Assembly: GCA_964552055.1 (NCBI GenBank)
Contig: CAZKFL010000002.1
Location: 10,665-74,664, forward strand
Source of the DNA: an uncultured bacterium
GTDB lineage: Bacteria > Chlamydiota > Chlamydiia > Chlamydiales > 2-12-FULL-49-11
Direction of reading: 5' to 3'
DNA length: 64,000 nucleotides
Part shown: positions 1-47,523 of the stretch, one piece after another
How positions within the stretch are numbered: position 1 is the stretch's first letter
Layout: each line of letters starts with the position of its first letter
Made by a program: the position numbers and the translations under genes
Notes under the pieces: model-generated
What the model saw: only the letters and a program-made list of their open reading frames with translations
Told to the model about the DNA's origin: nothing
The model's database searches: none

Positions 1-7
1 AGGCACT

Positions 8-4002: not shown

Positions 4003-4155
4003 TTGCGCCCACATGATCATCTAGTTTTGCGTCTTCAAAGAGGTGGTTTTGCACCTCCATTAAGAGTCTCATTTTGGCTATTTTCTCTTCCATATTTTGA
4101 AGAATATAATATTACAATTTTAAAAAAAAGAGAGGATTGTGGTAGGGTGTGAAAT

Positions 4156-5930: not shown

Positions 5931-5934
5931 TAGT

Positions 5935-9845: not shown

Positions 9846-9907
9846 AAAACTACCTTTTTTTTATTTTAATTTTACTGGAATAGAAGCTTTTTACTAATTC
9901 ATTAGTT

Positions 9908-31250: not shown

Positions 31251-31318
31251 ATTTAGAAAATTATATTATCTATTGTTTTATGTCGACGAAATGAGGGAAA
31301 ACGGTATAATCTTTTCGT

Positions 31319-31771
31319 ATGGAAACAAAAGAAATTGTCTCAAATCGCTCGGCCTATCATCATTATGAAGTGATTGAAACATACGAGGCTGGCATTGTTT
31401 TGCAAGGAACTGAAATTAAGTCACTAAGAGACAATGGTGGTAACTTGCAGGATAACTATGTGACAATTAAAAAAGGTGAAACATGGTTAAGGAACGCTTC
31501 CATTTCCCCTTACAAACATGGGAATATCTACAATCATGAAGAAAAAAGAGAGCGAAAGCTGCTTTTTCACAGAGAGGAGATTTTAAAGCTGCGTAAATTA
31601 ACTGAGATAAAAGGTCATACCCTTATTGCTCTTAGTTTTTATTTGAAACGCGGAATTATTAAAGTTAAGGTTGGTGTTTGCAGAGGCAAAAAAACTCATG
31701 ACAAGCGTGAGGACCAGAAGAAAAAGTCTCAACTTAAAGAGATCTCACAAGCTTTCAAAAATGCTGGTTGA
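31319..31771 (+). CDS. smpB: SsrA-binding protein
   Basis: [26 protein letters not shown] and a basic C-terminal tail, 150 aa. Confidence 0.95.
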
Positions 31772-31822
31772 CGCCAAAGCTTAGAATTCATTAAAATTGG
31801 TTTTTCTTTATAGGGGTTTTTT

Positions 31823-32929
31823 ATGAAATTTAGTGTTCAGCGTGATGCATTTTCTTCTTTGATTGGCAAGATTCAGGGTGTTGTTCCAGCAAAAGCTGTA
31901 ATTCCAATTTTAGCAAACGTATTGATTGAGGCAAAAGACAACCAGATTATTGTAACTGCTACTGATTTAACAGTTAGCCTGCGAGCAAGTTTAGATGCTC
32001 TAGTTCTTGAAGAAGGTGCTATTGCTTTACCTGCCAGAAGATTTTTTCAATTAATTCGGGAATTAAAAGCGCCAGAACTTAAAATTGAGACTGATAGTAA
32101 TCATGTTGCAGTTTTGACAAGCGGATCCTCTCATTTTCGAATAAACGGCCTTGATAAAGGTGAATTTCCGGCATTTCCTGAAATAAAAGGGGGCAAATCT
32201 TTTTCACTCCCCTCTGCAAGATTGAAAGAAATGTTTGTTAACACTTCCTTCGCTGCTGCAAAAGATGATACAAGACAGGTGCTTAATGGAATTTACATGG
32301 AAATTGATGAAAACAAAGTAATCATTGTTGGTACTGACGGTAAAAAACTTGCAAAAATTGAACAGACTGTTGAAAGTAGTTCAGGCGAAAAACAAGTCAG
32401 CATTATCCCTTTAAAGGCAGTTGACGAAATGGTTAAGCTACTTGATAATGAATCGGTTGAAACAACTCTAACATTAATGGGGGATAAAATTGCACTTGAG
32501 ACAGATAAGGGCTCACTTGTCTCAAAACTTCTTTCGGGGCAATTTCCTGATTACCAAAGAGTTCTGCCAGACAGAAATTCAATGCACAAAATGCATCTTC
32601 ACAAAGAAGAGTTGATGACGCTTCTTAAGCAAGTTTCTTTATTTACGTCCGAGGCAAGCCATTCAGTAAAACTGACATTTGAAAGTGGCGAACTAAAGTT
32701 GCAAGCAATTAATAGTGAAATTGGTGAAGGCAAAGTGAATATGCCTGTAGACTACCATGAAGAGAAGTTAGATATCGCTTTCAATCCTCACTATTTTATC
32801 GATATTTTACGTCATTGCAAAGATGAAACAGTTAGTTTTGGCATTACAGACTCGTTTAATCCAGGTTCTATTACAGACACATCTGAAGCCCACTATGTGC
32901 TCATGCCAATGAGACTTAGTAGTGATTAA
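31823..32929 (+). CDS. dnaN: DNA polymerase III beta sliding clamp
   Basis: 368 aa. The N-terminus MKFSVQRDAF...PILANVLIEA...ATDLTVSL and the three-domain length fit DnaN. Confidence 0.9.
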   Translation: MKFSVQRDAFSSLIGKIQGVVPAKAVIPILANVLIEAKDNQIIVTATDLTVSLRASLDALVLEEGAIALPARRFFQLIRELKAPELKIETDSNHVAVLTSGSSHFRINGLDKGEFPAFPEIKGGKSFSLPSARLKEMFVNTSFAAAKDDTRQVLNGIYMEIDENKVIIVGTDGKKLAKIEQTVESSSGEKQVSIIPLKAVDEMVKLLDNESVETTLTLMGDKIALETDKGSLVSKLLSGQFPDYQRVLPDRNSMHKMHLHKEELMTLLKQVSLFTSEASHSVKLTFESGELKLQAINSEIGEGKVNMPVDYHEEKLDIAFNPHYFIDILRHCKDETVSFGITDSFNPGSITDTSEAHYVLMPMRLSSD

Positions 32930-33956
32930 ACGTCTTCGCCTCTTTCAGTTTAGGAATTTTAAAGAAATTGATCTTGAATTTGAAAGAGGGCTCAATGCTA
33001 TAATTGGGCCAAATGCGATTGGGAAAACAACTATTCTTGAAGCTATCCGTCTTTTAAGCATTGGCAGATCTTTTCGAACTGCAAAGCTTAGCGAGCTTAT
33101 AAAAAAAGATGAGAAAAACTTTTTTATCCAAGCGTATTTCGAAAAGGATGGTATTGAGCAAACACTTTCCATTTCTTATGATGGAGTGAATAAGGAAATC
33201 AAGCATAACGAAACTTTCTATAATTCATTCTCTCCCCTATTAGGTCTTTTACCAACAGTTGTGTACTCACCTTTTGATATCGAATTACTGCACGGGGCGC
33301 CGTCAGAAAGGCGTAGGTTTGTAAATATTTTGATTGCCCAATCAAATGCTGCTTATGTGTATCACCTAACAAGATACGCAAAAGGGATAGCTCAGAGGAA
33401 TGCATTACTGCGAAGTAAAGACACAAAGTCAATTGAGCTATGGGAAGATGATCTCATTAAATCAGCTCTATATATTCAAGAGAAGCGAGCTCAGGCGATA
33501 AAAATGATCTCGGATAAAACAGAAAGGATCTATCTGGAATTATCCGAAAAGACAGAAAAAATAGCCCTTTCCTATGTGCCATCAAATATTTCTAGAGAGA
33601 TTTTTAAAAAGAATAGAGATCGGGAGATTTATCTAGGTTACACTATTGCAGGTCCCCATAGAGACGATATTGATATTTCTTGCAGCGGCTTATCAGCGAA
33701 AAATTACGCAAGCGAAGGGCAAAAAAGAACTATTATCGCATCTTTAAAACTTGCGGAAACAGAGAGTCTAGAGAATGCCACCCTTCTAATCGATGACTTT
33801 GGGATTCATCTTGACGATCAGAGAAAAGCAAGATTCGAGGATAAAATCCAAAATCAAAATCAGCTCTTCTTAACATCGCCAACTAACTATTTCAGGCGAG
33901 CTTTTTTATGTTCTTTGGACGCTCACCCTCTTCAAGTAAATTCATCTCCTCAATAA
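32922..33956 (+). CDS. recF: DNA replication and repair protein RecF
   Basis: Walker A GPNAIGKTTILEAI, SEGQKRT signature, LLIDDF Walker B. It overlaps the end of dnaN by 8 nt. Confidence 0.9.
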   Translation: MIKRLRLFQFRNFKEIDLEFERGLNAIIGPNAIGKTTILEAIRLLSIGRSFRTAKLSELIKKDEKNFFIQAYFEKDGIEQTLSISYDGVNKEIKHNETFYNSFSPLLGLLPTVVYSPFDIELLHGAPSERRRFVNILIAQSNAAYVYHLTRYAKGIAQRNALLRSKDTKSIELWEDDLIKSALYIQEKRAQAIKMISDKTERIYLELSEKTEKIALSYVPSNISREIFKKNRDREIYLGYTIAGPHRDDIDISCSGLSAKNYASEGQKRTIIASLKLAETESLENATLLIDDFGIHLDDQRKARFEDKIQNQNQLFLTSPTNYFRRAFLCSLDAHPLQVNSSPQ

Positions 33957-35520
33957 AAGCGCCTGCTAGCAAAGATTCTTTATCCTGAGGAAGGCAACCT
34001 TTCTCTCTCTGATGCTTAAAGAGCTCTATTACGCTGTTGGCTAGAATTTTTCCCAGCTGCACCCCCTCTTGATCAAAAGAATTAATCCCCCATATAAACC
34101 CTTGAAATGCAACCGTATTCTCGTGATAAGAAAGGAGGTTGCCAAGAGTATAGGGATCAAGAACGTTTGCTAGAAGAATGTGACTTGGTCTATTGCCGCC
34201 AAAGGATTTGTTTGGATTGCTATTTGAACTCCCTTTTGCAAGAGCAATTGCCTGCGCAAAAAGATTTGAAAGGAGTTTTTCTTGATTAGTGGTTTTATCA
34301 ATAATTGAATCTCCCTCGCTTTGAGCTCGCACAAACCCTATAAATTCAACGGGAATCGGGTCAGATCCTTGGTGTAAGCATTGAAAATAAGAGTGCTGAC
34401 ATTCCGAGCCAACAGTTCCCCAAATTACAGGGGTTGTGCCCTCCTGAATAAAACTGCCATCCTCTTGTGATACACTTTTTCCATTTGATTCCATATAGAG
34501 CTGCTGCAGGTGTGCGGACCAAAAATTCATCGGAGCAGAATAAGGAATTATGGCAAGAGTGTCTGCTTGGAGAAAATTCCTATTCCAAACAGCTAATAGA
34601 GCAGAAAATAATGGCAAGTTTTTTAGTGGGTCTTTTTCAAGAAGCGCATGCCTATCCATTTCATGTAATCCTTTTAAAAACTCTTCCCATACGCTCATAC
34701 CAAAAACAAATGTAAGAGGGACTGCGCCAACCATACTTGATACTGAATATCTTCCTCCGATATAATCCCACATATAGAAGACTTCTAAAAACTTCGACGG
34801 ATCATCCATAGGACTGCCCTTACCAGTGACCAAGATAAAGTGGTCCTTCACGTCGATTTTTGCTTCTGCGTATTTTTTTCGTAAGAGAGCTTCTTGAGAC
34901 TTAATTTCAAGTGTACCGCCAGACTTAGAAACAATTGCTACAAGTGTTGATGCAAGATCTACTTCATCCAAAATTCCATTTACTTTGTCAGGATCAATAT
35001 TTGAAGCAAAATACAGCTTTTTATCATTTGTTTGATAGGCCTTAAGTGCATGGTAAACAGCCTCTGTTCCCAAATAGGAGCCTCCAATTCCCACAATAAT
35101 CATTGCCTTATATTTTTTAGTGGCTGGGAGAAAATTCTTTAGCTTTCGAAGCTCTGTTACATAATCATCTCTAGCTTCCCTTGCAGCATCGGTGCATTTG
35201 CTATTTAGATCCAAATTTCGAATTGCAGTGTGCCCAACTCTTCGATTTTCACTTTCGCAGTTTTTTACATAGTTCATTACTTCCATATTTTGAAGTCGGA
35301 GCATCTTATCGTGAGCACCTACCTCAACTGCAAGATTGCAAAGGGCTTTACAAATCTTATCATCAACTCTTTCAGTTCCATAAAGCATTTTCCACCTATC
35401 AAACGAGAGCGTCATATTTTTAATTCGTTCTCTATTAAGACATTCTGGATGGGTCAGGTCGGGGGCTGATTTTGCAAGCGTGCGAAGCTCTTTTACAGAT
35501 TTGCAATCGTTAAATTTCAT
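33892..35520 (-). CDS. pgi: Glucose-6-phosphate isomerase
   Basis: GIGGSYLG, WDYIGGRYS, and ESNGK in the catalytic region, 542 aa. Confidence 0.9.
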   Translation of the reverse strand: MKFNDCKSVKELRTLAKSAPDLTHPECLNRERIKNMTLSFDRWKMLYGTERVDDKICKALCNLAVEVGAHDKMLRLQNMEVMNYVKNCESENRRVGHTAIRNLDLNSKCTDAAREARDDYVTELRKLKNFLPATKKYKAMIIVGIGGSYLGTEAVYHALKAYQTNDKKLYFASNIDPDKVNGILDEVDLASTLVAIVSKSGGTLEIKSQEALLRKKYAEAKIDVKDHFILVTGKGSPMDDPSKFLEVFYMWDYIGGRYSVSSMVGAVPLTFVFGMSVWEEFLKGLHEMDRHALLEKDPLKNLPLFSALLAVWNRNFLQADTLAIIPYSAPMNFWSAHLQQLYMESNGKSVSQEDGSFIQEGTTPVIWGTVGSECQHSYFQCLHQGSDPIPVEFIGFVRAQSEGDSIIDKTTNQEKLLSNLFAQAIALAKGSSNSNPNKSFGGNRPSHILLANVLDPYTLGNLLSYHENTVAFQGFIWGINSFDQEGVQLGKILANSVIELFKHQREKGCLPQDKESLLAGAFIEEMNLLEEGERPKNIKKLA

Positions 35521-35622
35521 AGTTTCACCTCGTTTTGCTTGATTTTAGACATAAAATGCAATTTTTCATCAAATGTTTTGAATTTAAATCAGAAAAAAAG
35601 TAGAATTATCACTTCTTACGTT

Positions 35623-35697
35623 CGGAGTATAGCGCAGCTTGGCTAGCGCGTCTGGTTTGGGACCAGAAGGCCGGGGGTTCAAATCCCTCTACTCCGA
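35623..35697 (+). tRNA. tRNA-Pro (anticodon UGG)
   Basis: Hand-folded cloverleaf. Acceptor stem CGGAGTA/TACTCCG, anticodon stem TCTGG/CCAGA with loop TTTGGGA, and a GGTTCAAATCC T-arm. No encoded CCA. Confidence 0.9.
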
Positions 35698-36722
35698 ATA
35701 AATTCTTCAAACAAGATTTCATCATCAAGACCTAGCTTCTCGCCAACTGAGATAACCTTTCCATCTGCAGCATTAAATCCTTGCAACATTCTTCTTCCCT
35801 CTCTTGATACTGCCTCAGAAAAAACAAGAATATAGTCTAGTCCATGCCAGCTTTCAATCATAAGCAGCTCAGGAAAAATAACATAATCAATTCTAGAATC
35901 GTTTAAAAGAGTTACTGCTTGATCAAATAAATCATAAGGAACCTTTCCCATTTCTGGCAGAACAACTCCCAAAAATGGAGGATTTCTTGGAATTAAGGGC
36001 GCACTTTTGTGGCCAATCATCCCTAAATCTCCGCTATCTTGCCATCCAAAACCTGAAAAAAGAGAATTCGCATGCTTTACTCCTGGCAAAATATAAGGAA
36101 AAAATGATTTTGATAATAGTTCAGCTTGATACGAGGGTCTATTTGTGTCTTTAAGGTCGAATAAGGCTATAAGAGGGACGTCATCAATCAATGAGGCTGA
36201 AAGGCGATGTAAATTTTGCATTAGGAGCTCCATCGAAAACAGTCTAAACATCTGTTTTGACAGGGCCTCTTCACCAAAATAAGCTCTTTTCCACTCATAA
36301 AAATCTGTATAAAGCGAAGCATCACTTGAGATTGAATCTGTGAAATCGCCACTTCCTCTATACAGAATAATTGCAGCAATTTGGCTCTTATATTTACTGT
36401 AAACTCTCTCTGAAAATGCATTAACTGCAAGACCTCTAGAGAAAAAGGCCGCAGAATCCCTCAAAAGGGCTTTCTTTTCTGAAAAACCAAAATCCAGTTC
36501 AAATGAAAGTTTAGCATTAAGCTTTATTGCCACTTCTATTTCGGACTCTAGGGATTCCCAGGCAAGATCAGATGATGGTCTTGCATCGATATAGATATTA
36601 AGAGTGTTAAAATTTTTATCTTTTACAAACTCATATCCGGTTTCGGCAATAACAGGCCTCACTTGACATCCCCTTCCAAAACAAACTGCATATGTCGTAT
36701 GGATTTTCCAAGGCTTTCCCAA
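35679..36722 (-). CDS. Hypothetical protein
   Basis: 347-aa ORF with no recognised motif. Its 5' end overlaps trmB and its 3' end overlaps tRNA-Pro on the opposite strand. The true start may be internal. Confidence 0.5.
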   Translation of the reverse strand: MGKPWKIHTTYAVCFGRGCQVRPVIAETGYEFVKDKNFNTLNIYIDARPSSDLAWESLESEIEVAIKLNAKLSFELDFGFSEKKALLRDSAAFFSRGLAVNAFSERVYSKYKSQIAAIILYRGSGDFTDSISSDASLYTDFYEWKRAYFGEEALSKQMFRLFSMELLMQNLHRLSASLIDDVPLIALFDLKDTNRPSYQAELLSKSFFPYILPGVKHANSLFSGFGWQDSGDLGMIGHKSAPLIPRNPPFLGVVLPEMGKVPYDLFDQAVTLLNDSRIDYVIFPELLMIESWHGLDYILVFSEAVSREGRRMLQGFNAADGKVISVGEKLGLDDEILFEEFIRSRGI

Positions 36723-37381
36723 AGTCGATTAAAATAGGACGAGCCGTATTCATTTGGCAGAGAGGAGACTTCAAGCGAATTCCATTTTGGATGACTGCTA
36801 ACAACCTTCATCATTTGCTCAGAATATTTTTGATGATCTGTAACTAGAGTCAATGTTGCCCCTTCTTTACACACTCTAGTTAACATTTCGATAAAAGGTG
36901 ACTGTATAATTCTATTTTTAGCGTGACTATTTTTTGGCCAAGGATCGGGAAAGTTTACGTACGCCTTCTCAACAGAATTCTCTTTAAGATAATGCGTGCA
37001 AAAATCCTCAGCCATCCCGCAGACAGGAAGAAGGTTAGTTAATCCTAAATTATGCTTTTTAGACCAAATTTGTCTTGTACGCTGAAATTTTTTCTCTACC
37101 CCGATCCAGTTATATTCTGGATAAAGTCCCGCAGCTCTTGCAATCCATTCCCCGTTCCCACTACAAAATTCAATACAAATAGGATTATCGTTCCCGAAAA
37201 TTTCTTGAAACGTAGTATCAAATTTTTCATGTTCATCATAATGTCTTGGAACACAAAGCATCCCTTCATGAAGGAGGGGCTTTCTCTCTTCCCAACTAAA
37301 AAGAATAGGTAAGTCTACAGGTCTCATGATATATAAGTGATGTGCCCAGGAAGGGACTTGAACCCCCACGCCTCGCGGCAC
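36659..37381 (-). CDS. trmB: tRNA (guanine-N7)-methyltransferase
   Basis: EFCSGNGEW SAM motif and VNFPDPWPK. The ORF-track start lies inside tRNA-Leu, so the likely real start is the Met at 37327 (MRPVDLPILF). Confidence 0.85.
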   Translation of the reverse strand: MPRGVGVQVPSWAHHLYIMRPVDLPILFSWEERKPLLHEGMLCVPRHYDEHEKFDTTFQEIFGNDNPICIEFCSGNGEWIARAAGLYPEYNWIGVEKKFQRTRQIWSKKHNLGLTNLLPVCGMAEDFCTHYLKENSVEKAYVNFPDPWPKNSHAKNRIIQSPFIEMLTRVCKEGATLTLVTDHQKYSEQMMKVVSSHPKWNSLEVSSLPNEYGSSYFNRLWESLGKSIRHMQFVLEGDVK

Positions 37382-37423
37382 CAGATCCTAAGTCTGGCGT
37401 GTCTACCATTTCACCACCTGGGC
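37343..37423 (-). tRNA. tRNA-Leu (anticodon UAG), long variable arm
   Basis: The reverse complement reads GCCCAGGTGGTGAAATGGTAGACACGCCAGACTTAGGATCTGG..GGTTCAAGTCCC..CCTGGGCA. The anticodon loop is CTTAGGA. Confidence 0.9.
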
Positions 37424-37454
37424 AGATAATGAAATGGAGATTCTAACAGGCAAT

Positions 37455-38795
37455 TTAGTTTTTTGTCAAGAAACAAAGCATTTGATACACAAGACGCGCA
37501 GCTGCAAGCTCAGACGAGAGCTCTCCGCCTTGTGGATTAAGCCCAACAAAGTCAATTCCAACCACTTTTTTCTTTCGAATGACCGTTCTTAGCAACTTTA
37601 TTACTTTTGCATAAGAAAGACCCATTGGTTCAGGTCTGTTACTCATCATAACACCTGGATCAAAAACGCTGGCGTCAATTGTAATATAGACATTTGACTC
37701 GCTTAATTCCTCAACAACATCTTCCATCCAATGATCGTCTTTTTCGTCAAAAATATCTGAAGCAAAGAAAATCTTATCAAATTGTAAATCACGTTTCTCT
37801 CTATTTGAAGTTGATCGAATCCCTACCTGAACGACATCTTTTGCATATTCAAGACCTTTTTTGATAGCGCATGCAGGACTATAAGCCGATCCGTCATAGC
37901 TAGCTCTAAGTTGTGTTGATCCGCCAAGGTGAAGAACAGAGAAATCTCCTATCACTTCTTTTAAGCCTTTTATAGCCCCTATTGTCACCGTTTGATCTTC
38001 ACCTAAAAAAATAGGGAATTTCCCATCATTCAAAAGCTTAATTACTTCTTCTTCTACAGCTTGAACAAAAACATGAGGCGTCTCAACTGAAACTAAAGCA
38101 GGAGCTGTATGAATTCCGACTTGAGAGAGCTGTTGATCCGTCTCAAGATCATAGTCTTCCATATATTTAGACGCTTTTAATACCGATAAAGGGGCATAGT
38201 GCTCTTTTATTTTAACGGGATACTCGTACAAAACAGGAATAACCACAAATTTTGAGCTTTCATAAGGACTTTCCTTGCCAAGGAACGGAGGAAGCTCCGG
38301 ATGAAATTTATTGAATGGAAGGTATTTTTCAGTAAATCCAATACCCACAAGTACGCTACCGTGATCTTCTACAATTTTTAATGTCTGCAAAAGAGGTTTA
38401 ATGTTCTTGATTTCGTACTCACCATTTTCAAATTCTTTTCCTAAGCTCTCTAATTCATTGTGCAATGCTACTTCAAGAGTTGATATTGAATATTCACCAC
38501 TTTTCTTACAAATCAATGTTCGATCTTTTTTTCCATTCCGGTAAAGATCGCCTAAAATAATTCCTGCGCTAATTGTAGAGCCTTTTGACCCTTCTGCAGT
38601 TGCTAAAATTGTGTCAACCACATCATTTGAGGGTAAAACTTGCGCCCCTTCAAGCAAAAAAGAATCTTTTGGAAGATAATGTGTATGAAAGAGAGGTCTG
38701 CATTGTGACAATGAACTTACTTCTAAAGCCTTAGTAAAAGCCCCTGTTTGAGACTTACTTTGACCTGATCCATTAATAAAGTAATAATTTTTCAT
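37455..38795 (-). CDS. Fusion protein: pyruvoyl-dependent arginine decarboxylase-like N-domain plus ureohydrolase (agmatinase/arginase) fold C-domain, with non-canonical active-site motifs
   Basis: The N-terminal ~160 aa resemble PvlArgDC (GSGxSxSxTGAFxKAL, TISAGI). The C-terminal ~265 aa align to agmatinase landmarks (VQVGIRS, VYITID..FDP, VGIDFV..NP). However GGDH reads GEDQ, DAHTD reads GGSTQ, DxD reads DAS, and the late Glu is Gly. Confidence 0.6.
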   Translation of the reverse strand: MKNYYFINGSGQSKSQTGAFTKALEVSSLSQCRPLFHTHYLPKDSFLLEGAQVLPSNDVVDTILATAEGSKGSTISAGIILGDLYRNGKKDRTLICKKSGEYSISTLEVALHNELESLGKEFENGEYEIKNIKPLLQTLKIVEDHGSVLVGIGFTEKYLPFNKFHPELPPFLGKESPYESSKFVVIPVLYEYPVKIKEHYAPLSVLKASKYMEDYDLETDQQLSQVGIHTAPALVSVETPHVFVQAVEEEVIKLLNDGKFPIFLGEDQTVTIGAIKGLKEVIGDFSVLHLGGSTQLRASYDGSAYSPACAIKKGLEYAKDVVQVGIRSTSNREKRDLQFDKIFFASDIFDEKDDHWMEDVVEELSESNVYITIDASVFDPGVMMSNRPEPMGLSYAKVIKLLRTVIRKKKVVGIDFVGLNPQGGELSSELAAARLVYQMLCFLTKN

Positions 38796-38911
38796 ATTTT
38801 TCTATTATTTAAATTTTTAATTACTAAATATAATTTATACTATTTGAATTTCTTTGTAAGATAAAAAAAAATCCTCGTCTATTATCCGGAAAAAAAACAT
38901 AATCTCTGTTT

Positions 38912-40327
38912 GTGGAAGTTAATGACCGAAAAAAGACCCTTGGCGTTTTTCAACTTATCATGATCAATGTGATCGCGGTAGATAGTTTACGCACGCTACC
39001 ATTTTCTGCTGAATATGGCCTCTCCCTTGTATTTTTCTATCTTGTAGCGGCATGTTTTTTCTTTATACCAAGCGGGCTTATTTCAGCAGAACTCGGAACA
39101 GGATGGCCTCATACGGGTGGTCTTTATATCTGGATTAGAGAAGCATTTGGTGAAAAAATCGGCTTAATAGCAATCTGGCTTAATTGGGTTTACAACCTTG
39201 CTTGGTACCCAACGATTATGGCTCTAATTGCCGGGACTTTTGCATATCTCTTTTCCCCAGAACTTGCTCAAAACAAAACTTATATGTATCTGCTGATTTT
39301 AGGCCTTTTCTGGGTGGCAACTTTCCTTAATTCGTGCGGAATGCGCATTTCGGTACTTATCAGCACAATAGGCGCGCTAATAGGAACTCTGATGCCAATG
39401 CTTTTTATTATAGTACTTGGTGGAATCTGGTTTTTTCAAGGCAGACCTTCAGAAATCACCTTCTCTCTTCCTGCATTATTTCCATCTATTGCAAGTTATG
39501 ACAAGCTCGCATACTTCAGTAATATTCTTTTTGGGCTAATTGGCCTAGAAATGGTTGCTGCTCATGCAGGCGAAATGAAAAACCCTAGGCGTGACTATCC
39601 AAAAGCTTTATTTGCCTCATCAATAATTATTATGTTTTCAATTGTTTTTGCATCACTTGCAATCTCAATGGTAGTCCCTCATAAGAATTTAAACCTTGTT
39701 GTTGGAGTCATCCAAGCATTTTCTCTTTTCTTTGAAGCATTTGGTATGCCTTGGATGACTAAGATCATCGCTGTTTGCGTTATTCTTGGCGGACTCTCTG
39801 GAGTTGCTGCATGGATGATTGGTCCTACTAAAGGAATTATGATTGCTAGCAAGGACGGCTCGCTACCCAAACTATTCACAAAAGTAAATAAGCATGGGGT
39901 TCCAACAGGAGCGCTCTACCTCCAAGCAGTCATCGTATCTGTTCTCTCTACAGCCTTTGTCTTCATGCCTACAGTCAATAGCTCCTACTGGCTTCTTTCA
40001 ATAATTACGGCTCAACTGGCGCTTATTGTATACATAACTCTCTTTGCAGCCTCAATCAAGCTACATCATTCAAAACGTGAAGTTCAAAGAAACTTCAAAG
40101 TCCCATTCGGCAACTTCGGCATCTGGTTTGTAGGCCTAAGCGGGATAGCAATAAGTCTTTGCGCAATCGCCGTCGGCTTTATCCCCCCTGAAAACATCCC
40201 CATGAATACCTCAATTGGCTATAAGTATCTTCTTATCTGTGGGATGCTGCTTCTTTCAGCTCTCCCCTTCCCTCTCTACTGGATTTCTAAGAATTCCAAA
40301 AAGAAGCGCTCCAAGCCCATCCTCTAA
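38912..40327 (+). CDS. APC-superfamily amino-acid antiporter, GadC (glutamate:GABA antiporter)-like
   Basis: GTG start. GLSLVFFYL..FFIPSGLISAELGTGWP.TGGLYIW, NPRRDYPKAL, AWMIGPTKGI, VNKHGVP and FIPPENI parallel GadC-family landmarks. Confidence 0.8.
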   Translation: MEVNDRKKTLGVFQLIMINVIAVDSLRTLPFSAEYGLSLVFFYLVAACFFFIPSGLISAELGTGWPHTGGLYIWIREAFGEKIGLIAIWLNWVYNLAWYPTIMALIAGTFAYLFSPELAQNKTYMYLLILGLFWVATFLNSCGMRISVLISTIGALIGTLMPMLFIIVLGGIWFFQGRPSEITFSLPALFPSIASYDKLAYFSNILFGLIGLEMVAAHAGEMKNPRRDYPKALFASSIIIMFSIVFASLAISMVVPHKNLNLVVGVIQAFSLFFEAFGMPWMTKIIAVCVILGGLSGVAAWMIGPTKGIMIASKDGSLPKLFTKVNKHGVPTGALYLQAVIVSVLSTAFVFMPTVNSSYWLLSIITAQLALIVYITLFAASIKLHHSKREVQRNFKVPFGNFGIWFVGLSGIAISLCAIAVGFIPPENIPMNTSIGYKYLLICGMLLLSALPFPLYWISKNSKKKRSKPIL

Positions 40328-40340
40328 TCCGTAAAATAAG

Positions 40341-40498
40341 ATTCACCGCAGAGACGCAGAGAACGCCGAGATCACAGAGGAAGAATAGGAAAAAGGAAGG
40401 TTAATTGCGCTTCAGAAGTCTCATATTTCTTCTTCTCCTTGATTTTTCTCTCACTTGTTCTCTGCGACCTCAGCATTCTCTGCGCCTCTGCGGTGAAT
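40341..40498. repeat. About 158-bp palindromic intergenic element with ~45-bp imperfect terminal inverted repeats (MITE/REP-like)
   Basis: The left arm ATTCACCGCAGAGACGCAGAGAACGCCGAGATCACAGAGGAA pairs with the reverse complement of the right arm ..TTCTCTGCGACCTCAGCATTCTCTGCGCCTCTGCGGTGAAT, with about 7 mismatches. Confidence 0.7.
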
Positions 40499-40535
40499 AT
40501 TTTTTTGTTTAGGCCTTGATTAAATAGATGCGAAT

Positions 40536-40862
40536 TTGCAAGGTATAGGTATGGAAGATATCGGACCTGTCTTAGCTACTACTATTTACCATCCTAAAGG
40601 AGGGCAAGAGACTGAATTTGTCAAAATCTGGACAAATAAGGTTGCAAGGCTCGCCTACTATATGGGATCTGATGATGTTCATATCTATCATAATGAAAAC
40701 ACAAGAGAGTTTGTGGCTACAATTCATTGGCCATCAAAAACTTTAGCAAGCATTTTTTTAGAGTCTTTGGAGTTTACCGAAGCGACCAAAGCAGTAAATG
40801 CTGCGTGCTTAATCCCCTCAAGCAAGCAAAGTTTTGAAATATTAAGAGAGCGCGCTGCATAG
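40536..40862 (+). CDS. Small hypothetical protein (possible ABM/dimeric alpha-beta barrel fold)
   Basis: About 103-108 aa (TTG at 40536 or ATG at 40551). The fold guess rests only on size and pattern. Confidence 0.35.
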   Translation: MQGIGMEDIGPVLATTIYHPKGGQETEFVKIWTNKVARLAYYMGSDDVHIYHNENTREFVATIHWPSKTLASIFLESLEFTEATKAVNAACLIPSSKQSFEILRERAA

Positions 40863-40879
40863 CTATAAATAAACATTAC

Positions 40880-41260
40880 TTATTGAGCTGGTGTAGCACT
40901 CTCTTTTTTTAGCATTGCATAGCATGTGCCAATCAGAACGCCTAAGGCTATGCAGCTAATCAACAATGTGTTAAATGTGCATATCGTTGGAACAATTTTG
41001 CCAATCAAAGTGTAGTCCATTGGTACCGTTGCGCTGCCCGCGACAATTAATCCCATATTTATATGAAGCGGGTTCGCAGCAACGCGTTCAGCAAATAAAC
41101 ATGCAATAGTACCCCCATATGGTGATCGCCAGATTTGTAAATTTTTTAGTAACACAGAAACCAAAGCACCGCTCGCTGCCCCTATTCCTGTACTTAAAAG
41201 ATATTGTTTAGTTCTTGTAACATTCATAAAAATCCTTAAAATAATAAGTTTACTCAGCAA
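40880..41260 (-). CDS. Small Gly/Ala-rich membrane protein
   Basis: Likely start at 27 (MNVTRTKQ), three to four hydrophobic helices. Confidence 0.45.
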   Translation of the reverse strand: MLSKLIILRIFMNVTRTKQYLLSTGIGAASGALVSVLLKNLQIWRSPYGGTIACLFAERVAANPLHINMGLIVAGSATVPMDYTLIGKIVPTICTFNTLLISCIALGVLIGTCYAMLKKESATPAQ

Positions 41261-41363
41261 TTGTACTCCAAGAGCAATTATCGAGCAATGTCATATACTA
41301 ATAGCTTTCTGTTAAGGATAATTGAGAAATATGGATTAATGAATTATTAAAACTATTTTTCTC

Positions 41364-41392
41364 TTGGCAATTAAAGAGAAAAAGGTTAGAAT
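41364..41392 (+). promoter_or_regulatory. Sigma70-like promoter candidate for the NTT gene
   Basis: TTGGCA (41364-41369), a 17-nt spacer, then TAGAAT (41387-41392), about 27 nt upstream of the ATG at 41419. Confidence 0.4.
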
Positions 41393-41418
41393 TCTAAGAA
41401 TTTTACCCGTATGTAGGA

Positions 41419-42939
41419 ATGACAATAGACACTAGTGATATAATTTTTAGTAAATGGCGCCGCAGACTCTGGCCTTTTCAAAGAGCAGAGTTCAAAAAAC
41501 TTTTCCCCTTAATTCTCATTAAATTTTTAATATCAATAGATTATGGCATTTTAACCAACATGAAGGACACAATGATTGTGTCTGCAAGTGGGTCAGGAGC
41601 TGAAGTTATTGCAGTTTTAAAGGGTTGGGTAGTATTACCAGCCGCAATGATTACTGTAGTTATCTATTCAAAATTGAGTAATGTCTTAAATAAGAAGAAG
41701 CTTTTCTATACCATGATGGGCGGCTTTTTAGCACTTATTTTCCTATACGGATTTGTTCTTTATCCAAATGCAGATTTTTTCTCTCCAAACGCTTCCTCGG
41801 ACTGGCTTTCTGCTAAATTTGGCGGTAAGCATGAACATTGGATTGCCGTCTACAGAAACTGGATTCACTCACTATTGTTCATTACAGCAGAACTTTGGGG
41901 CACAGTTGTTATCCTAGTTATGTTTTGGGGATTTGCAAATGATGTTACCTCCGTGGATGAAGCAAAACGGTCTTATAATATTTATATAGCTTCAGGCGAC
42001 CTAGCAGCCTTTTCAATTGGTCCTATAGTCTGCTTCTTTATGAATAGGATGGGAAAACACTCCTTTTTAATGGCAACGCAAAGCCTTCTCTTTGTAGTAT
42101 TAGCACTAGGTTTCCTTGTAATGGGGATTTTTTGGTGGATGAACAAATACGCCCTTACAGACAAAAATTTCTCCAATCCACTTGATTATCGAGGCTCTCC
42201 AAAGAAATTAAAAGAGAAACTATCTCTTTTTCAGGGGTTTAAGCACCTTGTTAAGTCTAAATATTTACTCGGCATTGCGGTTCTCGTAGTTGGATATGGA
42301 CTTTCGATGAACTTAATCGAAGTCACTTGGAAGGCCTCTGTTCATAGCCTTTACCCAAATCCTATTGATTACCAGACATTTACAAGTAAGGCCACTTCCT
42401 GCCTTGGTCTTGTAGCATTTCTAACATCTATATTTCTAGGGAGTAATATTATTCGTAAGTTCGGATGGCATTGCAGCGCTCAGCTCACACCTATAATGGT
42501 CGGTGTTACAGGGGTTTTGTTCTTCGCATTTGTGATAAATCCCAATATGTTAACTCCAGTTGCTGTTCTTTTTGGGGTCTCGCCACTTATGGTTGTCGTT
42601 CTCTTTGGAGCTTTTCAAAATATAATTAGTAAAGTTGCGAAGTATTCCTTTTTTGATCCCACAAAGGAAATGGCGTATATACCGCTAGACAATGACGCTA
42701 AATTGAAGGGTAAAGCTGCAATTGATGTTGTTGGGTCACGTTTAGGAAAATCAGGATCTGCCTGGATTCAAATAGCGATGATTGATCTAATTGGCTCAGG
42801 CTCAATATTTTCCGTTACACACATCCTCCTTCCAATTGTTGCTTTTGTCACAATTTCCTGGATTTTATCTGTTAGATCTCTTAGTCATCAATTTGAGGAA
42901 AAGCACCTAGAGCAAAAGTTAGCCGCAAAAATTAGCTAG
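41419..42939 (+). CDS. ADP/ATP (nucleotide) translocase, TLC/NTT family
   Basis: FKKLFPL...DYGILTNMKDTMIV, ELWGTVVILVMFWGFANDVTSVDEAKRSY and EMAYIPLDNDAKLKGKAAIDVVGSRLGKSG are hallmark NTT motifs. 506 aa. Confidence 0.9.
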   Translation: MTIDTSDIIFSKWRRRLWPFQRAEFKKLFPLILIKFLISIDYGILTNMKDTMIVSASGSGAEVIAVLKGWVVLPAAMITVVIYSKLSNVLNKKKLFYTMMGGFLALIFLYGFVLYPNADFFSPNASSDWLSAKFGGKHEHWIAVYRNWIHSLLFITAELWGTVVILVMFWGFANDVTSVDEAKRSYNIYIASGDLAAFSIGPIVCFFMNRMGKHSFLMATQSLLFVVLALGFLVMGIFWWMNKYALTDKNFSNPLDYRGSPKKLKEKLSLFQGFKHLVKSKYLLGIAVLVVGYGLSMNLIEVTWKASVHSLYPNPIDYQTFTSKATSCLGLVAFLTSIFLGSNIIRKFGWHCSAQLTPIMVGVTGVLFFAFVINPNMLTPVAVLFGVSPLMVVVLFGAFQNIISKVAKYSFFDPTKEMAYIPLDNDAKLKGKAAIDVVGSRLGKSGSAWIQIAMIDLIGSGSIFSVTHILLPIVAFVTISWILSVRSLSHQFEEKHLEQKLAAKIS

Positions 42940-42992
42940 GAGCCCCATTAATTAAATGTTATAATGAATACTCAAGCAAAAGAGGATCTTAT

Positions 42993-44132
42993 ATGAAAAA
43001 GAAAAGCAATTTATGCTGGTCAAACATCTTATTCTTAGTTGGTTATCATGTTCTTTTAGCGATACTTCTGCCTATTTACCTTGTGTTTTACACCCCCTCA
43101 AGCTCACTACTTATCCTGAGTTTTGTACTATTGTACACAACAGGTCTTAGCATTACAGCTGGTTACCACAGGCTATTTTCACATAGCACGTATAAAACCA
43201 ATAAAATTATTGAATCAATCTATCTATTCTTTGCAAGCATGGCTACACAAGGTAGCGCCCTCAGATGGTCTCATGACCACCGAATTCACCACGCTCATAT
43301 CGATAAAGATGAAGATCCTTATACAGTAAAACGCGGCTTTTGGCACGCCCACTTTATCTGGCTTTTTAAAAAGCAGAATCCTATCAAAGATAAGGTTGTA
43401 TCAGACCTTCTGAGAGATCCTATTGTTACATTTCAACATAAATATTATGAAATACTGATGGTTATCACAAATGTTCTTGCCACCATATTCATTGGCTGGG
43501 TAACAAACGACTACTTTGGAGCTCTTGTATTTGGATGGCTACTTAGACAATTTCTATTACATCATTTCACCTGGTTTATTAATTCACTAGCTCATTACTG
43601 GGGTCATCAAAACTACTCAACAGAGCACAGCGCCGTAGATAACTATGTTATTTCCCTACTTACATTTGGTGAAGGCTATCACAATTATCACCATACATTC
43701 GCATACGATTACCGAAATGGTATACGCTGGTACCACTTTGATCCTACAAAATGGCTTATTTGGTCATTAAGCAAGTTTAGGCTTGCTAGAGATCTTAAAA
43801 AGGTAAATCAGGCACGTATCGCCGAACAGATGATTAAAGAGCATAAGAGAGCCCTTTTAGAAAAGCTCCATGAATCCTTTACTGAGAAAAAGGAAGATCT
43901 AGAGCTAAAAGTAACTTATTTCACTGAAAACCTCATCGACAAACTCTCCAAACTCAATACACTTATGCAAGAATATAAATCTTGTAAAAAGTCGATGGAA
44001 GCTAGAGAAAAAGTTAGGCAGCTACTAAACGAAATCCATGATGTGAAAAAAAGTCTTAAGGCAGAATGGCGAGCTTGGAAAAATTTCTCCAAGTTTATTA
44101 TGACCCTTGAACCGCTTCCGACCTATGCATAA
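42993..44132 (+). CDS. Acyl-CoA (delta-9-type) fatty-acid desaturase with a C-terminal coiled-coil extension
   Basis: Histidine boxes GYHRLFSH, HRIHHAHIDKDEDP and HNYHHTF. The last ~90 aa are Lys/Glu-rich helix. Confidence 0.9.
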   Translation: MKKKSNLCWSNILFLVGYHVLLAILLPIYLVFYTPSSSLLILSFVLLYTTGLSITAGYHRLFSHSTYKTNKIIESIYLFFASMATQGSALRWSHDHRIHHAHIDKDEDPYTVKRGFWHAHFIWLFKKQNPIKDKVVSDLLRDPIVTFQHKYYEILMVITNVLATIFIGWVTNDYFGALVFGWLLRQFLLHHFTWFINSLAHYWGHQNYSTEHSAVDNYVISLLTFGEGYHNYHHTFAYDYRNGIRWYHFDPTKWLIWSLSKFRLARDLKKVNQARIAEQMIKEHKRALLEKLHESFTEKKEDLELKVTYFTENLIDKLSKLNTLMQEYKSCKKSMEAREKVRQLLNEIHDVKKSLKAEWRAWKNFSKFIMTLEPLPTYA

Positions 44133-44143
44133 AAACTAATACC

Positions 44144-45121
44144 TTGTTAAATCCCACTTTTGTTAGGGTGGGATTTATGAAACGTATTGGCCTTTTTCTT
44201 TGTTTATCGAGTTCATGTTTATTTTCAGAGTATCTCAATATTCCTGAGACTTCAGAGGGCCCTTGGTTCACAGGCCCTTTACTTACCCCATCTGCTTACA
44301 CTATTCCTCTTGGTCACTATAATTTTGAGCCGTACCTTTTTGTAGATAATGCATTTGGTCTCTATAATAATCACTGGACCGTAAAAAAACTCAAAGACAC
44401 ATTCTCCGCGATCAATTTCCAGTTTTGGGCCCAAATGGGTATCGCTTCTTTTATGGACTTTACTCTTGTTCCATCCTTTTTTTATACCTATATTGGCGAT
44501 GAAAGCTCCTGGCGATTTGGTGATATGTTTGCACAGGTCACTTTTCAGATGACAACAGAAACAGGCTTAAATGGTTTTGCGTCTAAGTTTGCAATCGGAG
44601 AAATTTTTCCACTCGGTGAGTACCAACATTTAGATAGTGAAAAGCGTTTAACAGATAGTGCTGGAGGAGGGAGCTTTGGAACCTCATTTGGATTTGTCTT
44701 TTCTAAGAGGTGGAATCTTTATTCTTTTCACTATTTTGCTGCAAGAATGTCTACAACAGCTATTTTATTTTCCCAGGTAAAAGTCCATGGCCTTAATTCG
44801 TATGGTGGTGGCAGAGGGACTAACGGAAGAGTCTTTCCTGGGACATCTTTTCCCCTACTTTTCGGATTTGAATACAATCTGACGCAAAATTGGGTGCTTG
44901 CTTTAGATATAGCCAGCACATATAGCTTTAGAACTCGATTTAAGGGGTCGTCTTTTTATCCAGTTGGTTGGGGTCCGTCCTATTCACTTAGCTTTGCACC
45001 AGCAATTGAGTATAACTATAGCGCGAACATAGGTCTAATTGGTGGTGTCTGGCTATCTGCTCTCGGAAGAAATTCACCACAATACATTAACTACGTTATT
45101 GCGATGAACTGGTACGTTTAA
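44144..45121 (+). CDS. Putative outer-membrane beta-barrel protein
   Basis: The likely start at 44177 gives the signal peptide MKRIGLFLCLSSSCLFS. The rest shows an alternating aromatic/Gly-rich beta-strand pattern and an aromatic C-terminus. Confidence 0.5.
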   Translation: MLNPTFVRVGFMKRIGLFLCLSSSCLFSEYLNIPETSEGPWFTGPLLTPSAYTIPLGHYNFEPYLFVDNAFGLYNNHWTVKKLKDTFSAINFQFWAQMGIASFMDFTLVPSFFYTYIGDESSWRFGDMFAQVTFQMTTETGLNGFASKFAIGEIFPLGEYQHLDSEKRLTDSAGGGSFGTSFGFVFSKRWNLYSFHYFAARMSTTAILFSQVKVHGLNSYGGGRGTNGRVFPGTSFPLLFGFEYNLTQNWVLALDIASTYSFRTRFKGSSFYPVGWGPSYSLSFAPAIEYNYSANIGLIGGVWLSALGRNSPQYINYVIAMNWYV

Positions 45122-46097: not shown

Positions 46098-46207
46098 TTA
46101 TACATAAACTTATAATTGATAGATGAATTTTTATCACTGAATTATTGCAATTTACATTTTTTTTAGTTATATAACAAATATCAATCAACGCTAGAGATAG
46201 AGTATAT

Positions 46208-46840: not shown

Positions 46841-46869
46841 TTTTAATAAAGATTTTATTCAGATACTAT

Positions 46870-47508: not shown

Positions 47509-47523
47509 CAACAGGAGAAATCT

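What the first reader, a model, noticed from the sequence alone, without database searches (positions are those of the whole stretch)
37455..40327. Decarboxylase-like/ureohydrolase-fold fusion with substituted catalytic motifs, divergent from a GadC-family antiporter
The 446-aa protein joins an N-terminal region resembling pyruvoyl-dependent arginine decarboxylase to a full-length agmatinase/arginase fold. Gene order and the divergently transcribed GadC-like antiporter recall the chlamydial AaxB/AaxC and enterobacterial Gad/Adi decarboxylase-antiporter acid-resistance logic. The Mn-binding signature of the ureohydrolase family is almost completely replaced: GGDH to GEDQ (nt 37989-38003), DAHxD to GGSTQ, DxD to DAS, and the late Glu to Gly. 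Structural landmarks are kept (VQVGIRS, FDP, NP). In my alignment, made from memory of the M. jannaschii enzyme, the Ser-Ser self-processing site corresponds to T-H-Y, so a pyruvoyl group may not form either. The protein could be a pseudoenzyme used as a sensor or regulator of the antiporter, or an enzyme with new chemistry.
Basis: partly seen in the sequence, partly recalled or inferred. Interest (0 to 1): 0.68.

Follow-up and report, generated by a model that had tools for sequence, protein, structure and literature searches.

The report
Doubly dead decarboxylase-ureohydrolase fusion in Chlamydiae
This environmental chlamydial gene descends from a fused arginine decarboxylase/guanidino-hydrolase that makes the polyamine homospermidine in sister lineages, but here both catalytic centres have been replaced and the partner gene is gone, yet the protein is conserved as tightly as housekeeping enzymes, so it probably has a new non-catalytic role.

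Summary
ORF 37455-38795(-) encodes a 446-aa protein with an N-terminal pyruvoyl-dependent arginine decarboxylase (PvlArgDC) fold and a C-terminal ureohydrolase fold. Of 12 catalytic or processing residues, 11 are replaced: N47R, S52T, S53H, E109K; H101Q, D124G, H126S, D128Q, H141P, D234S, E277G. Only D232 (D374) is kept. Fourteen orthologs from freshwater Chlamydiae MAGs (61-79% identity) carry the same replacements, nearly all invariant. dN/dS is about 0.05-0.11 and dN matches pgi and trmB.

The true fusion was found only at one syntenic chlamydial site, upstream of tRNA-Leu-trmB-pgi-recF. Other lineages there show a gradient from fully canonical to partly degenerate. All five lineages with an intact Ser-Ser or Thr-Ser site have a deoxyhypusine-synthase homolog (speY) directly downstream. 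The window clade and two other disrupted lineages lack it. Unfused pvlArgDC and speB genes in other bacteria are fully canonical, and several of those loci have a distant DHS/SpeY-like gene downstream.

The protein is therefore a selected double pseudoenzyme, a relic of the agmatine/SpeY homospermidine pathway. Its present role is unknown; I infer ligand binding, scaffolding or regulation. The link to the GadC-like antiporter is suggestive only. The acid-resistance (Aax/Gad/Adi) analogy is not supported.

The parts
37455..38795 (-). 446-aa two-domain pseudoenzyme ORF (stop codon 37455-37457)
   Evidence: Full-length AF2 model has pLDDT 91.9 and pTM 0.82. There are 14 full-length orthologs. dN/dS is 0.05-0.11.
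38316..38795 (-). N-terminal PvlArgDC-fold domain (residues 1 to about 160), catalytically disabled
   Evidence: Foldseek to 1n2m/2qqd gives E 2.5e-11, TM 0.73-0.82. hhalign to canonical fusion N-domains gives 99.8%. BLASTP to the L005 N-domain gives E 2e-27.
38679..38687 (-). H37-T38-H39, the position of the Ser52-Ser53 self-processing/pyruvoyl site. H37 is invariant; residues 38 and 39 vary (T/S/V and H/Y/N/S).
38697..38699 (-). R33 (invariant) in place of the processing residue Asn47
38505..38507 (-). K97 (invariant) in place of the catalytic Glu109
37458..38285 (-). C-terminal ureohydrolase (arginase/agmatinase) fold domain, residues 171-446, with the binuclear metal site dismantled
   Evidence: PF00491 E 2.9e-36. 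Foldseek to 3pzl gives E 1.9e-24, TMt 0.84.
37989..38003 (-). G265-E266-D267-Q268-T269 replacing GGE/DH. The His101 ligand is Gln, and all five residues are invariant in the clade.
37911..37925 (-). G291-G-S293-T-Q295 replacing DAHxD (D124G, H126S, D128Q)
37875..37877 (-). P307 (Gln in 13 of 15 clade members) replacing the proton-shuttle His141
37668..37676 (-). D374-A-S376 replacing DxD. D232 is the one ligand kept; D234 is Ser.
37542..37544 (-). G418 replacing the guanidinium-binding Glu277
38796..38911 (.). 116-bp AT-rich divergent spacer between the fusion and the transporter. It is unusually conserved: 81-88% identity to three orthologous loci, against 41-49% for the TLC-desaturase spacer.
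38912..40327 (+). GadC-family APC transporter (471 aa; GTG start here, ATG in orthologs), substrate unknown
37342..37423 (-). tRNA-Leu(TAG) immediately downstream of the fusion. It marks the right border of the cassette in all lineages and occupies the place where speY-DUF2608 sit in sister lineages.

Best explanation
The gene encodes a real, selected double pseudoenzyme. Its ancestor was a chlamydial fusion of a pyruvoyl-dependent arginine decarboxylase with a SpeB-type guanidino-ureohydrolase. That fusion derives from the unfused pvlArgDC-speB-speY operon seen in other bacteria, and together with SpeY it converts arginine to agmatine, then to N1,N9-bis(guanidino)homospermidine, then to homospermidine. 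In the window's lineage speY, DUF2608 and the flanking MFS and SDF transporters were lost. The decarboxylase domain lost its processing and catalytic residues: N47R, S53 replaced by H/N/Y (Ser is kept in two of the 15 clade members), and E109K. The ureohydrolase domain lost 5 of 6 metal ligands plus His141 and Glu277. Shown: both folds, the substitutions, their fixation, the purifying selection and the pathway context. Inferred: the protein no longer decarboxylates arginine or hydrolyses guanidino groups. Inferred: it is kept for a non-catalytic job. The most likely job is binding a small cationic metabolite (arginine, agmatine or a polyamine) in the remodelled, metal-free polar/acidic pocket (E266, D267, Q268, T294, Q295, D374, S376), and/or acting as an oligomeric scaffold or regulator. 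It may be co-regulated with the divergent GadC-like transporter.
For: Folds. Residue mapping by three independent routes: phmmer to PDB, MAFFT with canonical relatives, and hhalign plus hmmsearch to 1n2m. Fixation: the substitute residues E266, D267, Q268, G291, Q295, G418, R33 and K97 are invariant in 15 sequences that are only 61-79% identical. Of the 14 positions where the clade and canonical agmatinases are each conserved but differ, 6 lie in the metal/substrate motifs. Selection: dN is 0.15-0.22, equal to pgi and trmB, and omega is 0.05-0.11. The C-domain has 45% invariant positions and the N-domain 24%. Ancestry: every true fusion found lies at the same site upstream of tRNA-Leu-trmB-hyp-pgi-recF wherever the contig reaches that far. 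Five of five lineages with an intact S/T-S site plus E109 have speY overlapping or abutting the stop codon. The window clade, P0043 and P0046 have disrupted sites and no speY. The 22 distinct same-frame pvlArgDC and speB gene pairs tabulated in other metagenomes are canonical at all 12 sites; 10 further pairs lie in different frames and were not tabulated. The pathway chemistry is published (PMC13625781). There is a precedent for a dead arginase-fold domain fused to an active decarboxylase (F. nucleatum aODC, PMC8503589).
Against: No biochemical data exist. Every clade member keeps a hydroxyl residue at position 38 or 39 and an invariant H37, so atypical self-processing is not excluded. Strong conservation of the replacement residues would also fit a new catalytic site. 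dS is saturated (above 1.5), so the omega values are rough. Only the locus was examined, not whole genomes: an active paralog or an unlinked speY could exist elsewhere in the genome. The ligand-binding idea rests on residue chemistry alone; I could not inspect model coordinates.
Confidence: 0.65

Rival explanations
1. It is still an enzyme with new chemistry. The remodelled sites (H37 with T/S38 or S39, R33 and K97 in the N-domain; E266, D267, Q268, T294, Q295 and D374 in the C-domain) would form a new, metal-independent or differently processed active site.
For: The replacement residues are invariant rather than drifting. Each member has a Ser or Thr at 38 or 39, next to an invariant His. P0012 and P0014 have V-S, with Ser at the pyruvoyl-precursor position.
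Against: The residues needed for processing and protonation (Asn47, Glu109) have changed to Arg and Lys. All ureohydrolase-fold structures matched here are described as metal-dependent hydrolases (my background knowledge). Only 1 of 6 ligands remains. No new nucleophile is evident: C309 is also conserved in canonical agmatinases.
Confidence: 0.12
2. It is a dedicated cytosolic sensor or regulator of the divergently transcribed GadC-like antiporter.
For: The divergent pairing holds across the whole clade. The same transporter lies nearby in L005, L007 and L009. The 116-bp spacer is 81-88% conserved, while another spacer is 41-49%.
Against: About 20 kb around the locus is collinear in these genomes, so adjacency carries little information. 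L010, L013 and L015 keep the fusion without this transporter beside it. In L005, L007 and L009 an SDF gene lies between the two. The transporter stays 59-64% identical whatever the fusion's catalytic state. A 40%-identical paralog sits 11 kb away. No interaction evidence exists.
Confidence: 0.15
3. It is a prozyme-like partner: a dead paralog that oligomerises with and activates, or stabilises, an active decarboxylase or ureohydrolase encoded elsewhere. Models are the trypanosomatid AdoMetDC and DHS prozymes, from my background knowledge. Chains annotated 'metformin hydrolase subunit B' of MfmAB were among the structural matches, but whether that subunit is catalytically inactive was not checked here.
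For: Both parent families are obligate oligomers (background knowledge). Metformin-hydrolase chains, including one annotated 'subunit B', are among the structural matches. Polyamine metabolism has several such precedents.
Against: There is no second copy of either domain and no speY in the 64-kb window. Whole genomes were not searched.
Confidence: 0.08
4. It is a decaying gene with no function, or an assembly or annotation artefact.
For: The pathway partner genes are gone. Chlamydial arginine decarboxylases are known to be inactivated repeatedly (PMC2720952).
Against: Intact ORFs of 442-450 aa occur in 15 diverged sequences. Omega is about 0.05-0.11, dN equals that of pgi and trmB, and 45% of C-domain positions are invariant.
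Confidence: 0.03

Closest known systems
SpeY-pathway gene cluster: pyruvoyl ADC + SpeB-type G44G ureohydrolase + SpeY (e.g. Caldilinea aerophila; PMC13625781)
   Same: Same two protein families in the same gene order. Sister chlamydial loci still have speY immediately downstream. Unfused pvlArgDC and speB pairs occur in other metagenomes, several followed by a distant DHS/SpeY-like gene.
   Different: Here the two enzymes are fused, speY is absent, and 11 of 12 catalytic residues are replaced.
Fusobacterium nucleatum aODC fused to an inactive arginase/agmatinase domain (PMC8503589)
   Same: A basic-amino-acid decarboxylase is fused N-terminally to an arginase-fold domain whose Mn-binding aspartates are replaced.
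   Different: The Fusobacterium decarboxylase has the PLP-dependent AAT fold and is active. Here the decarboxylase has the pyruvoyl fold and is itself disabled, so no catalytic half remains.
Chlamydial AaxB (standalone PvlArgDC) with AaxC antiporter, and its repeated inactivation in C. trachomatis (PMC2720952)
   Same: Same decarboxylase fold in the same phylum, and a precedent for losing self-processing through point substitutions.
   Different: AaxB is unfused, is paired with an AdiC-like arginine:agmatine antiporter and a porin, and was acquired separately by Chlamydiaceae. Its inactive alleles are recent pseudogenes, not long-conserved proteins.
Catalytically dead paralogs in polyamine metabolism (trypanosomatid AdoMetDC and DHS prozymes, antizyme inhibitor, T. 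brucei arginase-like protein; the last is cited in PMC8503589, the rest are background knowledge)
   Same: Enzyme folds of polyamine metabolism retained under selection after losing catalytic residues.
   Different: Those have one dead domain and a known active partner or target. Here two dead domains sit in one chain and no partner is known.
E. coli GadC (PDB 4dji), for the neighbouring transporter
   Same: Best structural-sequence match (E 2e-57) and best NCBIfam models.
   Different: Scores are below the equivalog cut-offs. The protein ends at residue 471, and the match stops at GadC residue 469 of 511. No glutamate decarboxylase is nearby.

Membership tests
Pyruvoyl-dependent arginine decarboxylase (PF01862 / PvlArgDC) | Sequence profile match above the Pfam gathering score | tested here: not met
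   16.3 bits against a cut-off of 22.7, and only residues 2-82 match. A clade profile finds no PvlArgDC in the PDB by sequence.
Pyruvoyl-dependent arginine decarboxylase (PF01862 / PvlArgDC) | Four-layer PvlArgDC fold / homology | tested here: met
   Foldseek to 1n2m/2qqd gives E 2.5e-11, TM 0.73-0.82. hhalign to PF01862-positive sister domains gives 99.8%.
Pyruvoyl-dependent arginine decarboxylase (PF01862 / PvlArgDC) | Ser/Thr-Ser self-processing site (Ser53 as pyruvoyl precursor) | tested here: not met
   T38-H39 in the window. Position 39 is H/Y/N in 13 of 15 clade members and Ser in 2.
Pyruvoyl-dependent arginine decarboxylase (PF01862 / PvlArgDC) | Asn47 (processing) and Glu109 (catalysis/processing) | tested here: not met
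   R33 and K97, both invariant in the clade.
Pyruvoyl-dependent arginine decarboxylase (PF01862 / PvlArgDC) | Self-cleavage and arginine decarboxylation | not testable with these tools
   Needs protein expression, SDS-PAGE/MS and an activity assay.
Ureohydrolase / arginase family (PF00491) | Profile match and alpha/beta arginase fold | tested here: met
   125.8 bits against a cut-off of 22. Foldseek to 3pzl gives TMt 0.84.
Ureohydrolase / arginase family (PF00491) | Six ligands of the binuclear Mn site (H101, D124, H126, D128, D232, D234) | tested here: not met
   The residues are Q, G, S, Q, D, S, so one of six is kept.
Ureohydrolase / arginase family (PF00491) | His141 proton shuttle and Glu277 guanidinium contact | tested here: not met
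   P307 (Gln in most of the clade) and G418.
Agmatinase equivalog (TIGR01230) | Score above the NCBIfam equivalog cut-off | tested here: not met
   131.5 bits against 174.3.
Chlamydial PvlArgDC-ureohydrolase fusion of the SpeY (homospermidine) locus | Full-length two-domain homology and the same syntenic site (upstream of tRNA-Leu-trmB-pgi-recF) | tested here: met
Chlamydial PvlArgDC-ureohydrolase fusion of the SpeY (homospermidine) locus | speY (PF01916) immediately downstream | tested here: not met
   No speY in the locus or anywhere in the 64-kb window, nor in orthologous loci L001-L004 or the P0012 contig.
GadC glutamate/glutamine:GABA antiporter (neighbour gene) | NCBIfam equivalog score | tested here: not met
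   426.5 against 650 (TIGR03813) and 413 against 640 (NF053662). These are still the best models.
GadC glutamate/glutamine:GABA antiporter (neighbour gene) | Partner glutamate decarboxylase in the vicinity | tested here: not met
   No decarboxylase family among the 47 window ORFs scanned. The ORFs at 1..64000 of at least 150 aa that were not scanned are 58386-58913(+) and 58967-63889(-).
AaxABC / AdiAC arginine:agmatine exchange | AdiC/AaxC-type antiporter | tested here: not met
   The AdiC model NF007929 scores 78 bits against a cut-off of 574. AdiC structures match at E 1e-17, against GadC at 2e-57.

The most novel reading that the evidence does not exclude
The chlamydial ADC-ureohydrolase fusion has a second, non-catalytic function that outlived the homospermidine pathway. 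That function could be metabolite sensing or regulation of amino-acid/polyamine transport, or assembly of a larger complex. The window clade would then be a 'pure' form of that function: a double pseudoenzyme whose two former active sites have been rebuilt into ligand-binding sites. It would be a natural example of an entire two-step metabolic module converted into a regulator.
Probability: 0.25. Interest if true: 0.75.

Novelty: new variant of a known kind. Interest (0 to 1): 0.55.

Why it matters
Chlamydiae are usually regarded as polyamine scavengers. These loci suggest that some environmental lineages synthesise homospermidine through the recently described agmatine/SpeY route, using a fused ADC-ureohydrolase that I did not find described in the papers searched. 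The family gives a naturally graded series within one syntenic locus: fully active, then half dead, then doubly dead but conserved. That is a useful system for studying how enzymes become pseudoenzymes and what keeps them under selection. If the dead protein binds arginine, agmatine or polyamines, it could reveal how obligate intracellular bacteria sense host-derived cations.

Tried and rejected
1. A sequence-only profile of the clade N-domain against the PDB found no PvlArgDC. Homology had to be shown through sister fusions and fold search.

2. The second homologous-protein run, with a mixed alignment, returned only one extra fusion.

3. The metagenome scan seemed at first to give about 20 more fusions. 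On inspection, every non-chlamydial hit has stop codons between the two domains, so these are adjacent separate genes. I rejected them as fusions and kept them as the unfused ancestral state.

4. Rfam and promoter/terminator scans of the locus gave only the tRNA-Leu, with no riboswitch or leader.

5. I looked for a second copy of either domain, for speY, DUF2608, SDF or MFS, and for any amino-acid decarboxylase in the window. None was found.

7. dN/dS values are limited by saturated dS.
Full report
**What is there**

The window is from an environmental chlamydia. It has about 38% GC, a TLC ATP/ADP translocase at 41419-42939, and its orthologous loci all lie in Chlamydiae MAGs from lakes. ORF 37455-38795(-) encodes 446 aa. 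ORF 38912-40327(+), divergent across 116 bp, encodes a 471-aa APC transporter.

In Pfam the 446-aa protein has a strong Arginase-family match (PF00491, residues 200-441, E 2.9e-36). It also has a sub-threshold PvlArgDC match (PF01862, residues 2-82, 16.3 bits against a cut-off of 22.7). NCBIfam's agmatinase equivalog is the best model but scores below its cut-off (131.5 against 174.3).

**Checking the residue claims: C-domain**

phmmer alignments to three solved ureohydrolases (3pzl, 3lhl, 6vsu) agree with one another. In rat-arginase numbering:
- LGGEH aligns with LGEDQ, so H101 is Q268.
- DAHSD aligns with GGSTQ, so D124 is G291, H126 is S293 and D128 is Q295.
- SHAC aligns with SPAC, so H141 is P307.
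- DMD aligns with DAS, so D232 is kept as D374 and D234 is S376.
- VEF aligns with VGL, so E277 is G418.

An alignment with 26 canonical single-domain agmatinases (35-40% identical) gives the same columns. Those relatives carry H, D, H, D, H, D, D, E at 23-26 of 26 sequences. The nucleotide coordinates of each motif were verified by translation.

**Checking the residue claims: N-domain**

By sequence alone, the clade's N-domain profile finds nothing in the PDB. Other routes establish the homology:
- It aligns over its full length with the N-domain of a sister protein (L005) that is a bona fide PF01862 member (E 3.4e-26). The BLASTP E-value is 2e-27.
- A profile-profile comparison with six such domains gives 99.8% probability and E 7e-28.
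- Those domains in turn hit M. jannaschii PvlArgDC 1n2m at E 1.3e-6.
- An AF2 model of residues 1-172 (pLDDT 85.7) has the 1n2m/2qqd proenzyme as its top Foldseek hit (E 2.5e-11, TM 0.73-0.82).

Through this chain, Asn47 corresponds to R33, Ser52-Ser53 to T38-H39, and Glu109 to K97. The full-length model is confident (pLDDT 91.9, pTM 0.82), and its C-domain superposes on agmatinase 3pzl (TMt 0.84).

**More than chance**

Fourteen full-length orthologs (61-79% identity, 442-450 aa) exist. In the 15-sequence alignment these residues are invariant: E266, D267, Q268, T269, G291, T294, Q295, D374, G418, R33, H37 and K97. Position 293 is S or A, 376 is S or N, 307 is Q, P or H, 38 is T, S or V, and 39 is H, Y, N or S.

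There are 14 C-domain positions where the clade and canonical agmatinases are each conserved but differ. Six of them lie in the metal/substrate motifs.

Against four orthologous loci, dN is 0.15-0.22. That is the same as pgi (0.18-0.22) and trmB (0.14-0.17). Omega is 0.05-0.11, with the caveat that dS is saturated. In the C-domain 45% of positions are invariant, and in the N-domain 24%. This is a protein under strong purifying selection, not a decaying gene.

**Where it comes from**

An exhaustive HMM search of 1.84 billion representatives with the clade profile found thousands of plain agmatinases. It found only about nine other 50%-identity clusters of two-domain proteins. Where the contig extends far enough, each lies at the same chromosomal site, upstream of tRNA-Leu(TAG)-trmB-hyp-pgi-recF-dnaN-smpB.

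The fullest version of the locus is APC-SDF, then divergently MFS-fusion-speY-DUF2608 (L007). The window clade has only APC and the fusion.

State of the 12 sites and presence of speY downstream:

| Lineage (locus) | N-domain processing/catalytic sites | C-domain sites | speY downstream |
|---|---|---|---|
| P0050 (L013) | canonical | canonical | yes |
| P0048 (L016) | canonical | canonical | yes |
| L005 | intact | H101P, H141E, E277N | yes |
| P0042 (L006) | intact | H141E, D234A, E277N | yes |
| P0045 (L007) | intact | D124G, H126K, D128K, H141S, D234S | yes |
| P0044 (L015) | A-S | D234S | no |
| P0043 (L012) | V-T | H101P, H141R, D234N, E277G | no |
| P0046 (L010) | N47R, P-K, E109D | H126Q, H141S, D234S | no |
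| Window clade | N47R, T-H, E109K | 7 of 8 replaced | no |

So all five lineages with an intact Ser-Ser or Thr-Ser site plus Glu109 have a deoxyhypusine-synthase homolog (PF01916, speY) starting at or overlapping the fusion's stop codon. None of the lineages with a disrupted N-domain has speY there. The window clade includes the deep-branching P0012 contig.

L005's neighbours are 59-65% identical to the window's, but its fusion is only 34% identical. The fusion therefore evolved much faster on the branch separating the two lineages and then froze.

A metagenome scan added loci that looked like fusions. All of them have stop codons between the domains. They are adjacent, separate pvlArgDC and speB genes, several followed by a distant DHS/SpeY-like gene (21-25% identical to the L005 SpeY), in non-chlamydial contexts. 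The 22 distinct same-frame pairs tabulated are canonical at all 12 sites.

The published chemistry fits this arrangement. SpeY couples two agmatines to N1,N9-bis(guanidino)homospermidine, which a SpeB-type ureohydrolase converts to homospermidine. Clusters of SpeY, SpeB and a pyruvoyl ADC are described in that paper (PMC13625781).

**Interpretation**

The window protein descends from a fused ADC/guanidino-ureohydrolase of the SpeY homospermidine pathway. In its lineage the pathway partner and accessory genes were deleted, and both catalytic centres were rebuilt.

Loss of the two ancestral activities is inferred from residue identities, not shown biochemically. Non-catalytic retention follows from the selection data.

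Dead fusions also persist without speY in P0043 and P0046. This suggests the fusion protein has a function independent of homospermidine synthesis.

The former Mn site is now lined by fixed Glu, Asp, Gln, Thr and Ser residues. The former pyruvoyl pocket has gained Arg and Lys. This chemistry is compatible with direct binding of a small charged metabolite, but that is speculation until a structure or binding data exist.

There are precedents in the literature:
- The F. nucleatum ornithine decarboxylase is fused to an arginase-fold domain lacking Mn-binding aspartates (PMC8503589).
- The same paper cites a T. brucei inactive arginase.
- AaxB has been inactivated repeatedly in C. trachomatis (PMC2720952).

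I did not find a case where both halves of such a fusion are dead yet conserved.

**The antiporter link**

The transporter is GadC-like: E. coli GadC 4dji matches at E 2e-57 and AdiC at 1e-17, and the NCBIfam GadC models are best but below their cut-offs. It is not an AaxC/AdiC-type exchanger.

The 116-bp spacer is 81-88% identical across genomes whose synonymous sites are saturated, whereas the TLC-desaturase spacer is 41-49%. Regulatory constraint on the spacer is therefore likely.

Several facts weaken a functional link:
- The whole region is collinear.
- An SDF gene separates the two genes in L005, L007 and L009.
- L010, L013 and L015 lack this transporter beside the fusion.
- A 40%-identical paralog lies at 51779-53167.
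- No amino-acid decarboxylase was found among the window ORFs scanned.

The Gad/Adi/Aax acid-resistance analogy is therefore not supported. A regulatory tie to the transporter remains an untested possibility.

**Verdict**

The functional framing should shift from acid resistance to a relic of agmatine-dependent homospermidine biosynthesis. This is a new variant of a known kind, namely polyamine-pathway pseudoenzymes. It is of moderate interest, mainly because of the graded natural series and the unexplained strong conservation of a doubly dead protein.

Noticed in passing
window 37342-37423 (-); L001-L004, L005, L007, L010, L012, L013, L015: tRNA-Leu(TAG) lies between the fusion cassette and trmB in every lineage. 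It is on the same strand as the fusion only in the window clade and on the opposite strand elsewhere, so a small inversion accompanied the loss of speY-DUF2608. The mechanical ORF 36659-37381 overlaps the tRNA, so trmB must start further downstream. A near-consensus promoter (TTGACA-18-TAGAAT, 37469 to 37440, minus strand) sits in the last codons of the fusion and points at the tRNA.
   Followed up: partly
L007:4619-5950 (P0045); L005:5947-7353; L006:2715-4124 (P0042): Chlamydial fusions with an intact decarboxylase site and speY downstream already lack some or most ureohydrolase metal ligands. P0045 has D124G, H126K, D128K and D234S. The ureohydrolase step may not be done by this domain in those organisms. 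The end product could be bis(guanidino)homospermidine, or another hydrolase may act (the co-located DUF2608 is one candidate).
   Followed up: partly
L009:6062-6223: The ORF overlapping the end of the degenerate fusion P0049 resembles the SpeY N-terminus only faintly, and the glycine-rich SLGGA.ST.G stretch conserved in the other speY genes reads SLNSLPIVNG. It may be a degenerate speY. The contig ends after 54 codons.
   Followed up: no
L005:5753-5896: A 48-codon remnant is 46% identical to the MFS transporter that precedes the fusion in L006, L007, L009 and L010. It looks like an MFS pseudogene fragment in L005.
   Followed up: no
L022-L045, L066 and L051, L056, L059, L073, L078, L082, L084, L085, L088, L093: Non-chlamydial metagenome contigs carry adjacent but separate pvlArgDC and speB genes, several followed by a DHS/SpeY-like gene. 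The 22 distinct same-frame pairs tabulated are canonical at all 12 sites. tblastn reads through the stop codon, so these can be mistaken for fusions.
   Followed up: partly
window 51779-53167 (+): A second GadC-family APC transporter, 40% identical to the one next to the fusion. It is followed by a 776-aa ORF (53164-55494) with a weak protein-kinase match.
   Followed up: partly
window 10863-11699 and 11552-12403 (+): The malic enzyme is split into two overlapping ORFs, one with the N-terminal domain and one with the NAD-binding domain. This is a probable frameshift, either a pseudogene or an assembly error.
   Followed up: no
window 21107-22375 and 22406-22972 (-): A GH5 cellulase-family gene appears split into two ORFs, each carrying part of PF00150. 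It may be an interrupted gene.
   Followed up: no
window 38796-38911: The divergent spacer is much better conserved (81-88%) than other intergenic regions. About 45 nt just upstream of the fusion's start codon are almost invariant. No Rfam family or consensus promoter for the fusion was found there.
   Followed up: partly
window 7106-8413 (+): A 435-aa membrane protein has only a weak TLC/MFS match (53 bits). It is a divergent second nucleotide-transporter-like gene in the same window as the canonical TLC at 41419-42939.
   Followed up: no
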